Assembly: GCA_963664405.1 (NCBI GenBank)
Contig: OY761158.1
Coordinates: 6,624,001 to 6,688,000 of the forward strand
Direction of reading: 5' to 3'
Source of the DNA: Thermoanaerobaculia bacterium
GTDB taxonomy: Bacteria; Acidobacteriota; Thermoanaerobaculia; Multivoradales; Multivoraceae
Length of the DNA stretch: 64,000 bases
Position numbers and translations under genes: made by a program. Each line of letters opens with the position of its first letter. Position 1 is the stretch's first letter. Below the pieces are notes generated by a model, which was not told where the DNA came from, searched no databases, and saw only the letters and a program-made list of their open reading frames with translations. Of this stretch, positions 6,786-27,841 are shown piece after piece.

Positions 6786-6952
6786 CTAGACCAGCGTTTC
6801 CAAAGTTCGCGCACATATCTCGGCCCCTTCTGCCCGCTGCCGGCGTTGCGCCTCCTCAACATATTCCCCAATATGCCTGCGTCGGCGCGCCTAGCCAGCG
6901 AACAGAATGAGCTCGAGCTATGCAGCACGAACTCTGGAAAACGCTGGTCTAG
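6786..6952 (-). repeat. Palindromic CTAG-bounded element, copy 1
   Basis: CTAG at 6786 and 6949; imperfect inverted arms of ~55 bp; central core shared with 27223-27263. Confidence 0.85.
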
Positions 6953-25887: not shown

Positions 25888-27141
25888 CTAATCGGACCTG
25901 TTCGGGATCGAGCGACCCTTCATCGTTTTCTCCTTCGAGAAAGGTCCACCGTCGGGCTCGAGGTCGAGGGCTCGACTGTAGCGCTCGAGCGCGACCCGGG
26001 CGGCATGGTGGCCGACTGTGCCGATGCCATCTTCGTGGTGGAGAGCGATCACCTCGAGACGGCCCTTAGGGCGGTGCGCTTTGAGGTCGAAGCGGGCCAC
26101 CAGGTTCTCGCCGGCGAGGACCGGGAGACAGAAGTAGCCATATTTGCGGTTTCTTGCGGGCTTGAAGATCTCGAGGATCTGATAGAAGTCGAAGAGCGCC
26201 TGTACTCGATCGCGGTCCCAGAGTACTGGGTCGAAAGGGGACAGAAGGGTTCCCCGGTCTCGACGCGGACGCGCCGCCAGCAGGCGCCCGGTGAGCTCGA
26301 GGTCCACAGGACGGATCCAGCCGGAGTGCCTACGATCCTTGCGCACCAGCTCGCAGGGCAGGATCGCTCCGTCTTCCGCCAGCTCGGAGAGTGCTTGACG
26401 AACTTCCCGCCGTAGATTGCGCAGGCGCCAGGTCTGGGCGAGAGTGCTGCTTTTTGCCCAGCCGTGACCGGAGAGAGCCCGCAGCAGGAGGATCTTGATG
26501 GCCTCGGGTGTGGGCGTCGCGGCTTGGAGAAGCTCGGCAGGGATGACTCTCTCTGCGAGGTCGTAAGATCGTTGGAAGCGCTTTCGCTCGCGGATGGCGA
26601 GAACGCCGGTGCCCCACAGCGCGTTCGCGACTTTCTTGGTGAGCTTGAGGTTCCACCATCCTCGCGACCCTTCGCCCTCGAGGTCGATCGAGCGTAGAGG
26701 GCCCTCAGCGCGGATGCGGGCGACGACCTCGTTCGCGACCCTCCGGTGCCGGCTGAGAAGGTCGCCCCACCATGGGTGGCGACGGTAGGCTCGACGGCGG
26801 AACGCGAAGACAGGGTAAAGATCGATCGGCAGCCAGCTCGCCTCGTGGCCCCAGTACTCGAAGAGCGGTTCTCCTGGGCGCAGAAGCTCTTCTCCGAGTG
26901 CCGGATCGAAGCCCTCGATGCGGGAGAGCAAGACCAGGGCGTGGGAGCGGGCGCCGGCTATGGAGACGGTGTCGAGTTGGAGGTAGCCAAAGCGATCGAC
27001 GACACGCAATGCGGCACTTCGCGCTCGTTTGCCGGCACCCGCGGCGCGCTTGGGCATCGCGGTCCACTCCGGCTTGAGCAGGCCGGCCCTGGCGAGTGCC
27101 AGACGCCGAGCAGCGCGCTGGTCGATGGAGAGGGTCGACAC
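25888..27141 (-). CDS. YcaQ/AlkZ-like crosslink-repair DNA glycosylase (start uncertain)
   Basis: LQLD (QxD), FEYWGHEAS, LLSPFDP, RKYGYF.LP, RFDLKAHR. Confidence 0.88.
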   Translation of the reverse strand: MSTLSIDQRAARRLALARAGLLKPEWTAMPKRAAGAGKRARSAALRVVDRFGYLQLDTVSIAGARSHALVLLSRIEGFDPALGEELLRPGEPLFEYWGHEASWLPIDLYPVFAFRRRAYRRHPWWGDLLSRHRRVANEVVARIRAEGPLRSIDLEGEGSRGWWNLKLTKKVANALWGTGVLAIRERKRFQRSYDLAERVIPAELLQAATPTPEAIKILLLRALSGHGWAKSSTLAQTWRLRNLRREVRQALSELAEDGAILPCELVRKDRRHSGWIRPVDLELTGRLLAARPRRDRGTLLSPFDPVLWDRDRVQALFDFYQILEIFKPARNRKYGYFCLPVLAGENLVARFDLKAHRPKGRLEVIALHHEDGIGTVGHHAARVALERYSRALDLEPDGGPFSKEKTMKGRSIPNRSD

Positions 27142-27163
27142 TAGCGGACCGTAGCACTCGATG

Positions 27164-27343
27164 CTAGTGGACCGTAACACTTGAACGTTTAGTGGCTGAG
27201 CGAGTCATCGTGGTCGAGATCAAGGCGCGCCGACGCAGGCATATCGGGGACTATGTCGAGGAGCGCGGGGGCGCCCAGCCTACGTAGAGATCGGCCGCGA
27301 GGGCCGCTCAGGCGCTAAGCGTTTGGGTGTTACGGTCCACTAG
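27164..27343 (+). repeat. Palindromic CTAG-bounded element, copy 2
   Basis: 17-bp perfect terminal IR CTAGTGGACCGTAACAC extended by G-U-rich arms; core shared with copy 1. Confidence 0.85.
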
Positions 27344-27358
27344 GGACCGTGGATAGGG

Positions 27359-27841
27359 CTAGGCCGGCGGCCGCGCGCTCAGGCTGATGACTCGCCCCAC
27401 CCGAGTGGGCCAGGGTACGTCTCGGATGGAGTCGTGCAATTCTTGGAAACGCTCGAGGATTGCGGGAGCGAAAGCGCAGGTGCGGCGCTCTGTACTCGAC
27501 ACGTGCAGAGAGAGGAGCTCGTTGGTCGCCGCCAGATAGCCTTCCTCGGCGTGAAAGAGGCGATGAAAGTAGTGCACCTTCTTTTCGCTCCAGCCGAGGA
27601 GCTGCGTGGTGATGTAGAGGGGAGCGCCTTCGAGGAGCTCACGCTCGTAGGTGGCGTGGCTTTCGGCGCTGAAGGTCGCAATTCCGTGCCGCTGTCGATG
27701 TTTGTCGTCGAGTCCGCAGAGATCGAAGAAACGGGTCGTGGCCTCGTCGAACACGACCATGTAGTAACCGACATTGAGGTGGCGGTTGCGGTCGATCCAC
27801 TGCGGCAGCACGGTCCCTTCCCAGGTGCGAAGTAAATTCAT
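27359..27841 (-). CDS. Hotdog-fold thioesterase family protein
   Basis: WIDRNRHLNVGYY..VFD, ESHATYEREL, ATNELLSLHV. Confidence 0.85.
   Translation of the reverse strand: MNLLRTWEGTVLPQWIDRNRHLNVGYYMVVFDEATTRFFDLCGLDDKHRQRHGIATFSAESHATYERELLEGAPLYITTQLLGWSEKKVHYFHRLFHAEEGYLAATNELLSLHVSSTERRTCAFAPAILERFQELHDSIRDVPWPTRVGRVISLSARPPA

What the first reader, a model, noticed from the sequence alone, without database searches (positions are those of the whole stretch)
27164..27343. Palindromic element copy 2: strand-specific G-U pairing, antisense to flanking genes
Seen: a 180-bp element with a perfect 17-bp terminal IR (CTAGTGGACCGTAACAC...GTGTTACGGTCCACTAG). The stem extends to ~50 bp with about eight G-U pairs on the + strand, which would be A-C mismatches on the - strand. 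As in copy 1, the wobble-compatible strand is the one reading AGGCGCGCCGACGCAGG. Both neighbouring genes are on the minus strand. Inference: the folding constraint is intrinsic to the element rather than imposed by the host mRNA, supporting its own single-stranded intermediate.
Basis: partly seen in the sequence, partly recalled or inferred. Interest (0 to 1): 0.8.

Follow-up and report, generated by a model that had tools for sequence, protein, structure and literature searches.

The report
Strand-specific hairpin mobile repeat family
The 180-base palindrome is one copy of a large family of small mobile hairpin repeats in an uncultured Acidobacteriota genome whose stems fold well on one strand only, which suggests that the element is read as a folded single strand when it spreads.

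Summary
Window 27164-27343 has a perfect 17-bp terminal inverted repeat. Its + strand folds at -117.2 kcal/mol and its - strand at -82.5. Both neighbours are minus-strand genes. It is one of about 240 copies in this 6.78-Mb genome. The copies are MITE-like, 165-180 nt long and bounded by CTAG. They fall into at least six subfamilies whose ~57-nt arms are unrelated in sequence, yet all share one conserved apical core. The same family occurs in at least 20 other Thermoanaerobaculia/Acidobacteriota assemblies, with further arm types. Arms covary (44 of 60 pairs have changes on both sides). Transition mismatches are wobble pairs on the core-sense strand: 33 against 4 in this genome and 41 against 20 elsewhere. 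Orientation is random with respect to host genes (53 same, 55 antisense). Private mutations show no wobble bias, so selection acts on spread and not on resident copies. No autonomous partner with matching ends was found. An IS91+integrase unit sits nested in the apex of two copies. My best reading is a non-autonomous element recognised as a folded single strand, ssDNA rather than RNA, but this step is inferred. This is a new variant of a known kind. The scan earlier noted a similar strand-specific foldback MITE in another Acidobacteria genome.

The parts
27164..27343 (+). The flagged element: a 180-nt hairpin repeat of subfamily B, in the variant with an extra insertion in the right half of the core
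   Evidence: Sequence; folds; aligned with 19 other family members
27164..27222 (+). Left arm. It begins with the CTAG terminus. Positions 1-4 and 11 are invariant and position 12 is at least 90% conserved across the family; the rest is subfamily-specific.
   Evidence: Alignment A3 invariant and nearly invariant columns C1 T2 A3 G4 G11, T12; arm types listed
27223..27244 (+). Left half of the conserved apical core (the 22-nt motif used to find all copies)
   Evidence: 241 genomic matches at up to 4 substitutions; conserved across assemblies
27245..27263 (+). Apical loop and right half of the core (apical helix, then purine-rich internal loop)
   Evidence: Apical helix pair at columns 84/92 changes on both sides in 7 of 20 sequences; loop bases are invariant
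27264..27280 (+). Insertion variant of the right core (the alignment gap is 13 columns wide). The same variant is seen in some A and C copies, so core modules are shared between arm types.
   Evidence: Alignment gap columns; length classes 178-180 in subfamilies A, B and C; copies listed
27285..27343 (+). Right arm, ending in the CTAG terminus; pairs with the left arm through Watson-Crick and G-T/G-U pairs
6786..6952 (-). Copy 1 in the window: a 167-nt member of subfamily A with the same core and unrelated arms
   Evidence: (I1)
27141..27163 (+). Degenerate partial copy of the B-type left arm (18 of the first 21 positions identical by my reading). It abuts the element, is bounded by CTAG, and overlaps the likely GTG start of the AlkZ-like gene.
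   Evidence: Read directly
25888..27141 (-). Downstream neighbour on the minus strand: AlkZ-like DNA glycosylase. The open frame runs on to a GTG at 27180, inside the element.
27359..27841 (-). Upstream neighbour on the minus strand: thioesterase. Its TAG stop lies in the CTAG at 27359-27362.

Best explanation
The element is a member of a family of non-autonomous mobile hairpin repeats (MITE-like, 165-180 nt) that insert at CTAG. Two things are conserved: the termini (CTAG, then G and T at positions 11-12) and an apical core of roughly 60 nt, made of short covarying helices around invariant purine-rich loops. The ~57-nt arms may take any sequence as long as they pair. I propose that a trans-acting enzyme reads the element as a folded single strand, the core-sense strand, when it is copied or moved. 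Pairing is therefore kept by Watson-Crick or G-T/G-U pairs on that strand, while A-C mismatches are removed. Shown: the copy number, subfamilies, boundaries, covariation, strand bias, independence from host gene direction, and recent activity of every arm type. Inferred: that the fold is needed for spread and not for a function in place; that the single strand is DNA rather than RNA; and the identity of the enzyme, which is unknown.
For: There are 241 core matches in the genome, 240 of them in element context. 164 complete copies fall into six arm types, each bounded by CTAG, and adjacent copies share one CTAG. Every arm type contains identical pairs, with median pairwise identity 0.94-0.99. 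All six consensus sequences fold better on the core-sense strand, by 14-37 kcal/mol. So do 12 of 12 arm types from other genomes. In an alignment that treats both kinds of transition mismatch alike, arm mismatches are 33 wobble against 4 A-C in this genome (p 1e-6) and 41 against 20 in other genomes (p 0.01). For covariation, 44 of 60 pairs change on both sides and 94.4% of cells pair against 67.9% in shuffles, with 0 of 500 shuffles as high. Core helices covary while core loop bases stay invariant. Between same-direction genes the orientation is 53 sense and 55 antisense. Singleton variants at paired sites give 27 G-T, 19 A-C and 45 other mismatches, so resident copies decay about neutrally. 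Shared variants include 17 compensatory doubles. The asymmetry persists with DNA energy parameters. The core-sense strand lies on the leading-strand template in 144 of 240 copies (p 0.002). Apart from the two composites, no element carrying these ends encloses anything other than the core.
Against: No direct evidence exists for any single-stranded form. No RNA run holds the locus, and no excised form was seen. A 2706-nt composite (A3-type arms around an integrase+IS91 unit) occurs twice with identical arms, so it moved as a unit with its arms 2.5 kb apart. That is easier for a double-strand cut-and-paste enzyme than for a hairpin. CTAG junctions of the form C|TA|G... are those of IS630-type elements, and the genome has an IS630-like element with such junctions. 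The replication-orientation bias is weak (60:40) and runs opposite to that of IS200/IS605 elements. 29-nt D-type remnants at 9 loci lack both core and hairpin; if they are mobile, the fold is not required. In other genomes the wobble bias is only 2:1. My gene calls are crude.
Confidence: 0.45

Rival explanations
1. It is an ordinary double-strand cut-and-paste MITE of the IS630/Tc1-mariner type (TA duplicated within CTAG). The hairpin and its G-U bias reflect selection at the RNA level after read-through transcription, as proposed for ERIC and bcr1 repeats.
For: The junctions read C|TA|G...C|TA|G. The genome's IS630-like element (1245 bp) and those of another element-bearing genome have the same junction form. 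IS630's preference for TA in CTAG is on record (title in the reference list of PMC2170065). The composite moved as a unit with 2.5 kb of cargo. 60 of 164 complete copies sit on a TAG stop, and 75 of 216 intergenic copies lie between convergent genes, so many are probably co-transcribed.
Against: Six or more unrelated arm types are all recently active, yet the genome has one intact and one truncated IS630-like element, whose ends are unrelated to any arm and which lack the core. DDE_3 was found in only 2 of 5 other element-bearing assemblies, all of them incomplete MAGs. Orientation relative to genes is random (53:55). Singleton mutations show no selection for the RNA fold in resident copies. 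A duplex-binding enzyme does not explain why 57-nt arms covary along their whole length, or why the mismatches are wobble on one strand.
Confidence: 0.25
2. It is an RNA element: either a dispersed family of structured non-coding RNA genes, or a repeat that spreads through an RNA copy (retro-mobile). The conserved core would then be a protein-binding RNA motif.
For: The strand difference is much larger with RNA than with DNA energies (35 against 11 kcal/mol). The pattern of covarying helices with invariant purine-rich internal loops and a conserved 3-nt bulge is typical of protein-bound RNAs.
Against: No Rfam family matches, even at E up to 10. No promoter-like or terminator-like site lies in or beside the element. 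The element begins exactly at CTAG, so an internal promoter could not produce the full hairpin. Singleton decay looks neutral. No reverse transcriptase was linked to it, though I did not search for one.
Confidence: 0.12
3. The hairpin arms are the true ends of the 2.7-kb integrase+IS91 element. The 167-nt repeats are its internal-deletion derivatives, moved by its HUH transposase or its integron-like tyrosine recombinase, both of which act on single-stranded or folded DNA.
For: The A3-type repeat equals the left 101 nt plus the right ~70 nt of the composite, joined at an AAT microhomology. ORF1 is a tyrosine recombinase with Xer/integron-integrase similarity, and ORF2 is an IS91 transposase (1.3e-128). 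Both composites have identical arms.
Against: Five further integrase+IS91 copies (42-46% aa identity) have no such arms. Their left end resembles the sequence that starts just inside the apex in the composite, small hairpin included, so the IS91 unit looks complete and nested. Only A3 arms flank it, and no such unit exists for arm types B-F. G035 has 22 core matches but no IS91 transposase match at E 1e-40, and G152 has none at 1e-10.
Confidence: 0.08
4. There is no selection on folding. The wobble excess is a mutational by-product, such as strand-biased C-to-T deamination, inherited from a few founder copies.
For: Copies within a subfamily share their G-T positions by descent. T-G (T in the left arm) outnumbers G-T (T in the right arm) 26 to 7 in this genome, which could mean directional deamination.
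Against: The wobble positions differ between the six arm types, so they arose independently. Singleton substitutions show no C-to-T excess on the core-sense strand (C>T 14, G>A 26). 44 of 60 pairs show compensatory double changes. Copies lie in both genomic orientations.
Confidence: 0.05

Closest known systems
ERIC / MITEEc1 and other IS630-associated bacterial MITEs (RUP, Correia-type)
   Same: Small non-coding imperfect palindromes, many dispersed copies, intergenic and often at gene 3' ends, TA at both termini, able to form long hairpins in transcripts. Passages seen: PMC3184786 and PMC11602168 (which names MITEEc1_IS630). The IS630 CTAG/TA preference was seen only as a title in the reference list of PMC2170065.
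   Different: Here the ends vary and the centre is conserved, the reverse of a transposase-defined MITE. Six or more arm types are active in one genome with no IS sharing their ends. Orientation to genes is random. The fold is strand-specific through wobble pairs.
bcr1 repeats of the Bacillus cereus group
   Same: [quoted passage not shown]
   Different: Different host phylum and target, with no sequence relation. For bcr1 the RNA is documented; here no transcript evidence exists and resident copies decay neutrally.
REP/REPIN elements with RAYT transposases, and the TIR repeats with RAYT-like 'TIRYT' genes described in Acidobacteria
   Same: Palindromic repeats thought to be moved as single-stranded DNA hairpins by HUH Y1 enzymes. 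[quoted passage not shown] This genome has 13 RAYT-like matches.
   Different: REPs are 20-40 nt with a GTAG or CGTC tag, and they flank their RAYT gene. Here the repeats are 165-180 nt with CTAG at both ends. None of the 13 RAYT-like genes is flanked by them.
IS200/IS605 elements and their non-autonomous derivatives
   Same: Strand-specific single-strand transposition that relies on folded DNA. Insertion next to a short fixed sequence, with no need for sequence-identical ends (recalled knowledge).
   Different: Those elements have separate small hairpins at each end, not one end-to-end hairpin. They also show a strong bias for the active strand on the lagging-strand template (recalled). Here the bias is weak and opposite (96 of 240 on that template).
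Integron attC sites
   Same: Recombination sites recognised as a folded single strand. Structure and a few positions are conserved, the stem sequence is free, and only one strand folds properly (recalled knowledge).
   Different: In attC the conserved boxes lie at the stem base and the apex is variable. attC sites sit in cassette arrays beside an integron integrase. Here the apex is conserved and copies are dispersed singly.
   Same: A hairpin repeat of about 177 nt in Acidobacteria whose stem forms on one strand only. That agent also suspected single-stranded DNA.
   Different: It is an AI note on other DNA, with no sequence look-alike to this element in the index. It filed the element under IS5-type 4-bp duplication. 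I cannot tell a TA duplication from a CTAG duplication here.

Membership tests
Bacterial MITE (generic) | Short non-coding element with terminal inverted repeats | tested here: met
   165-180 nt; 17-bp perfect and ~57-nt imperfect inverted repeats. I did not assess the element itself for coding capacity.
Bacterial MITE (generic) | Many dispersed, near-identical copies showing recent mobility | tested here: met
   241 core matches. Identical pairs occur in all six subfamilies.
Bacterial MITE (generic) | Target-site duplication | tested here: inconclusive
   CTAG is present at both ends and shared by adjacent copies. No empty site was recovered, so TA and CTAG duplication cannot be told apart.
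Bacterial MITE (generic) | An autonomous element with the same ends that encodes the transposase | tested here: not met
   Arm searches find no longer element with these ends except two composites whose cargo looks like a nested IS91 unit.
IS630/Tc1-mariner-derived MITE | Ends matching those of an IS630-family element in the host | tested here: not met
   The IS630-like element shares only the CTAG junction and the next base with the arms, and it contains no core.
IS630/Tc1-mariner-derived MITE | TA duplication, often within CTAG | tested here: inconclusive
   The junctions are compatible, but no empty site was found.
REP/REPIN-RAYT system | 20-40-nt palindromes with a GTAG or CGTC tag that flank a RAYT gene | tested here: not met
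   Size and tag differ. The 13 RAYT-like matches are not flanked by the element. One gene has its own 31-bp inverted repeats, unrelated to the element.
IS200/IS605-type single-strand elements | Separate subterminal hairpins, no inverted ends, strong lagging-strand-template orientation | tested here: not met
   The element forms one end-to-end hairpin. The core-sense strand is on the lagging-strand template in 96 of 240 copies.
IS91 family (deletion derivative) | Ends identical to the ori and ter ends of an IS91-family element | tested here: not met
   The IS91-like ends lie inside the apex. Five other integrase+IS91 copies lack the arms.
Integron attC | Conserved boxes at the stem base, cassette array, adjacent integron integrase | tested here: not met
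   Copies are dispersed singly, and it is the apex that is conserved. The extrahelical bases of attC were not examined.
Any described RNA family (Rfam 15) | Match to a covariance model | tested here: not met
   0 matches at gathering score over the window, and 0 at E up to 10 over 27100-27400.

The most novel reading that the evidence does not exclude
A new kind of hairpin transposon. An as yet unidentified enzyme recognises a conserved apical module together with the CTAG base of a long single-stranded DNA hairpin. It is indifferent to the stem sequence, so arm families drift and multiply freely while the core is exchanged between them. This would be a structure-read mobile element, in the way attC sites are structure-read recombination sites.
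Probability: 0.3. Interest if true: 0.8.

Novelty: new variant of a known kind. Interest (0 to 1): 0.55.

Why it matters
Small palindromic repeats are common in bacteria, but their mode of spread is known for few of them. This family offers an unusually clean natural experiment. Many arm types with unrelated sequence share one core, all are active in a single genome, and the mismatch pattern points to one strand. If the fold is what the mobilising enzyme reads, that would add a structure-specific, single-strand route to the known ways in which non-autonomous elements move, and would lead to a new enzyme-substrate pair in a poorly studied phylum. It also matters for practice. These repeats break metagenome assemblies: many of the loci returned lie at contig ends. 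They also sit on stop codons and gene starts (60 of 164 complete copies supply a TAG stop), so they affect gene calling in Thermoanaerobaculia MAGs.

Tried and rejected
- **Rfam:** no hit at gathering score or at E up to 10.
- **Promoter/terminator scan:** 0 sites in 26900-27600.
- **RNA evidence:** no RNA holder listed for the locus, so expression could not be tested.
- **Read laying on four DNA runs:** contigs break at the repeat, no piece spans it, and no empty site was recovered.
- **IS91+integrase as parent:** rejected as the main reading.
- **RAYT-like Y1 genes as partners:** no flanking relation. Y1_Tnp was present in 4 of 5 other element-bearing assemblies, which says little without a baseline.
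- **IS630-like element as parent:** the ends and interior do not match.
- **L036 and L082:** these copies end after the apex and looked like cargo-bearing elements. L082 runs into what I read as a host nucleotidyltransferase-like gene, without a family search. L036 has no right arm within 14.5 kb. Both are truncated copies.
- **Viral contigs:** 0 matches.
- **Failed pattern:** a first class-wide pattern was badly designed (fixed loop length) and found only 2 sites even in the own genome. It was replaced by the pattern.
- **Fold-derived boundaries:** they ran into the flanks and inflated the counts. That tally (246 against 142) is superseded.
- **Age split of the replication-orientation bias:** no trend.
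- **Literature searches:** searches for a prior description found no description of this family. These were MITE + wobble, IS91 + tyrosine recombinase + hairpin, Acidobacteria + MITE + CTAG, MITEs + IS630 + CTAG + hairpin, and Thermoanaerobaculia + insertion sequence + repeat (0 papers). Supplementary MITE catalogues of PMC11602168 were not opened and could contain it.

Full report
**1. The observation**

The element lies at window 27164-27343. It has a perfect 17-bp terminal inverted repeat, and its arms reach 39 nt at 85% complementarity without gaps. As RNA the + strand folds into one long hairpin at -117.2 kcal/mol (z -11.3; 0 of 200 shuffles as good). The - strand reaches only -82.5. With DNA parameters the values are -58.3 and -47.3. 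The + strand fold holds 9 G-U pairs and the - strand fold 3.

Copy 1 is at window 6786-6952 on the - strand. Its core-sense strand folds at -109.7 with 8 G-U pairs, and the opposite strand at -81.4 with none.

The neighbours are an AlkZ-like glycosylase and a thioesterase, both on the minus strand. The element sits in the 214-nt gap between them. The thioesterase stop codon lies in a CTAG 15 nt from the element's end.

**2. What it is**

*Copy number and subfamilies.* The window lies in a single-contig genome of 6.78 Mb with 62.6% G+C. The 22-nt core motif has 241 matches at up to 4 substitutions. One of these is a chance match without arms.

With strict end motifs, 164 copies are complete and fall into six arm types: A 106, B 15, C 15, D 10, E 8 and F 10. 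The other 77 have variant ends, are truncated or carry insertions. One further singleton arm type was also seen.

Typical lengths are 165-168 nt. A 178-180-nt class carries an insertion in the right core, and the flagged copy belongs to it. All copies begin and end with CTAG, and adjacent copies share a single CTAG.

*Arms and core.* Arms of different types are unrelated in sequence beyond the first six bases, yet every type carries the same apical core.

*Activity and insertion sites.*
- Every type contains identical pairs, with median pairwise identity 0.94-0.99, so all have been active recently in this genome.
- CTAG is rare in the genome: 7502 observed against about 23,200 expected from base composition.
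- 60 of 164 complete copies supply the TAG stop of a gene called by my own crude gene caller.
- 75 of 216 intergenic copies lie between convergent genes, whereas 976 of 5045 gaps are of that type.

**3. Distribution**

The 80 rows shown come from 20 assemblies, all titled Thermoanaerobaculia or Acidobacteriota MAGs. Many of the loci lie at contig ends.

The arms in these assemblies are different again. There are 12 distinct types among 28 complete copies, and one group lacks the CTAG ends altogether. The core is nearly unchanged.

In an even sample of the class the pattern occurs in 2 of 151 genomes: G000 with 54 matches and G035 with 22. It was not found in any of the 23 other sampled genomes of the same family. 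The distribution is therefore patchy. No viral contig carries the pattern.

**4. Is the fold selected, and on which strand?**

*Consensus folds.* All six consensus sequences fold better on the core-sense strand:

| Subfamily | Core-sense strand (kcal/mol) | Opposite strand (kcal/mol) |
|---|---|---|
| A | -111.6 | -87.3 |
| B | -113.2 | -76.3 |
| C | -93.6 | -67.6 |
| D | -108.8 | -74.6 |
| E | -121.6 | -107.8 |
| F | -109.7 | -81.3 |

The same holds for 12 of 12 arm types from other genomes.

*Mismatch tally.* To avoid the bias of RNA folding, I aligned each left arm to the reverse complement of its right arm, with all mismatches scored alike.
- Over the arms only, the six consensus sequences give 33 wobble mismatches on the core-sense strand against 4 A-C (p 1e-6).
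- Single copies from the 12 foreign arm types give 41 against 20 (p 0.01).
- Over the whole element, the count in this genome is 39 against 8.
- Wobble positions differ between arm types, so they are not one inherited accident.

*Covariation.* On an alignment of 20 diverse members, the predicted structure has 60 pairs, and 44 of them change on both sides. 94.4% of cells pair, against 67.9% in shuffles and 29-39% when partners are slid by one to three columns. No shuffle out of 500 reaches any observed measure. The sequences are related, so the shuffle control overstates significance, but the slid controls keep relatedness.

Inside the core the short helices also covary. For example, the pair at columns 84/92 changes on both sides in 7 of 20 sequences. 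The unpaired bases there are invariant. Covarying helices around conserved loops are the signature of a molecule read in folded, single-stranded form. They are not what a duplex binding site would show.

**5. Where does selection act?**

*Not through host transcripts.* Between genes of the same direction, elements lie 53 sense and 55 antisense. Inside called genes the split is 14 and 10. Host transcription therefore does not set the orientation.

*Not on resident copies.* Variants seen in a single copy, which are mostly post-insertion mutations, give 27 G-T, 19 A-C and 45 other mismatches at paired sites (no significant bias). They also show no C-to-T excess on the core-sense strand (14 C>T against 26 G>A). 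Variants shared by several copies, each counted once, include 17 compensatory doubles.

The bias therefore lies in what gets propagated, not in what is preserved in place. This is the main argument that the fold matters for spread. It is an inference, and the numbers are modest.

**6. Replication**

By cumulative GC skew the origin is near 2.74 Mb and the terminus near the contig ends. The core-sense strand lies on the leading-strand template in 144 of 240 copies (p 0.002). Using local skew instead gives 141-143 of 240. My gene calls put only 52% of genes on the leading strand, so gene direction does not explain this.

The bias is weak, shows no age trend, and runs opposite to that of IS200/IS605 elements (recalled). 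One reading is that copies whose better-folding strand is exposed on the lagging-strand template are lost more often. That is speculation.

**7. Who moves it?**

*The integrase+IS91 composite.* Two 2706-nt elements have A3-type arms and enclose two ORFs. One is a 299-aa tyrosine recombinase (Phage_integrase 4.6e-44, with Xer and integron-integrase similarity). The other is a 398-aa IS91 transposase (1.3e-128). Their arms are identical. 61 of their 71 differences cluster in one 400-nt stretch, so the composite moved as a unit.

The A3 repeat equals the composite's left end plus its right end. However, five other integrase+IS91 copies lack such arms. Their left end resembles the sequence that starts just inside the apex of the composite, small hairpin included. 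The IS91 unit is therefore most simply a nested insertion in the apical loop.

G035 carries the repeat but gave no IS91 transposase match. G152 likewise gave none.

*Other candidates.* No longer element with B-F arms exists in the genome.
- The genome has one intact and one truncated IS630-like element. Its junctions have the same C|TA|G form, but its ends and interior are unrelated to the repeat.
- DDE_3 was found in 2 of 5 other element-bearing assemblies.
- Thirteen RAYT-like HUH matches are present, but none is flanked by the repeat.

The enzyme is unknown. Six unrelated arm types are active together and share only the termini and the core. The simplest inference is that one machinery reads those shared parts plus the pairing of the arms.

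**8. Comparison with known elements**

The element works like, and can be filed with, bacterial MITEs, but it fails the test of a cognate autonomous element.

The nearest described elements are:
- ERIC/MITEEc1 and other TA-flanked MITEs;
- bcr1 repeats, for which compensatory changes at the RNA level are reported (passages in PMC3184786, and PMC11602168);
- REP/REPIN-RAYT systems and the RAYT-like 'TIRYT' genes with repeat families in Acidobacteria (passages in PMC3733652).

It differs from all of them in three ways: a conserved centre with free arms, a strand-specific wobble pattern across independent arm types, and the lack of any linked gene.

My searches found no description of this family. 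I did not open the supplementary MITE catalogues of PMC11602168. It is not independent evidence.

**9. Verdict**

The second half (its own single-stranded intermediate) is the best available reading but is unproven.

I rate the element as a new variant of a known kind, of moderate interest. The open question is which enzyme reads the folded element.

Noticed in passing
genome G000:C1 about 6758843-6761548 (= L001:144-2849) and about 6272417-6275122: A 2706-nt composite occurs twice. An integron/Xer-like tyrosine recombinase plus an IS91 transposase are inserted exactly in the apical loop of an A3-type hairpin repeat. The arms of the two copies are identical, and 61 of the 71 differences lie within a 400-nt stretch downstream of the transposase gene.
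   Followed up: yes
genome G000:C1 near 34929, 41783, 596986, 615250, 887305: Five copies of a second integrase+IS91 element (42-46% aa identity to the first). They have no inverted ends, and two variants of the left ~80 nt exist.
   Followed up: partly
genome G000:C1, 9 loci (e.g. 970858, 1386504, 2162938, 4086595, 5442159): 29-nt units made of CTAG, about 20 nt of the D-type arm and ACTAG, all with the same junction and in unique flanks. A tenth abuts the composite at 6758903. They could be recurrent hairpin-promoted deletions, excision remnants or tiny mobile units. If they are mobile, the core and hairpin are not needed for movement.
   Followed up: partly
window 27141-27163 and 27344-27362: The flagged copy is flanked on both sides by short CTAG-bounded stretches that resemble the start of its own arm (18 of 21 identical on the left; only 7 nt on the right). 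This suggests repeated insertion and loss at this site.
   Followed up: no
window 27163-27241 joined to 27359 onward, in runs X8 and X10: One contig in each of two runs from related strains joins the reverse complement of the left arm and left core to the right flank, with 34 other letters between. The element may lie in the opposite orientation there. Depth is low and the data are metagenome contigs, so this is uncertain.
   Followed up: no
genome G000:C1, about 12 copies (e.g. 481222, 657386, 706669, 2209251, 6450481): An insertion of roughly 75 nt with two small hairpins of its own sits just left of the core in a dozen A-type copies. It may be another nested small element.
   Followed up: no
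genome G000:C1 3644743-3644874: A chimera: a B-type left arm and left core joined to an A3-type right arm, with the apex deleted. This shows recombination between subfamilies. The shared right-core insertion variant in A, B and C copies points the same way.
   Followed up: no
genome G000:C1, 13 places (e.g. 2207920-2208825, 2074073-2075008): Thirteen matches to the Y1_Tnp domain, lying in open frames of about 300-440 aa; the best NCBIfam hit is the REP-associated tyrosine transposase, below its cut-off. One gene is flanked by 31-bp inverted repeats, each containing a small palindrome.
   Followed up: partly
window 27141-27180: The open frame of the AlkZ-like gene runs on past the likely GTG start at 27141 to a GTG at 27180, inside the element's left arm. 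Automatic annotation may therefore start the gene inside the repeat.
   Followed up: no
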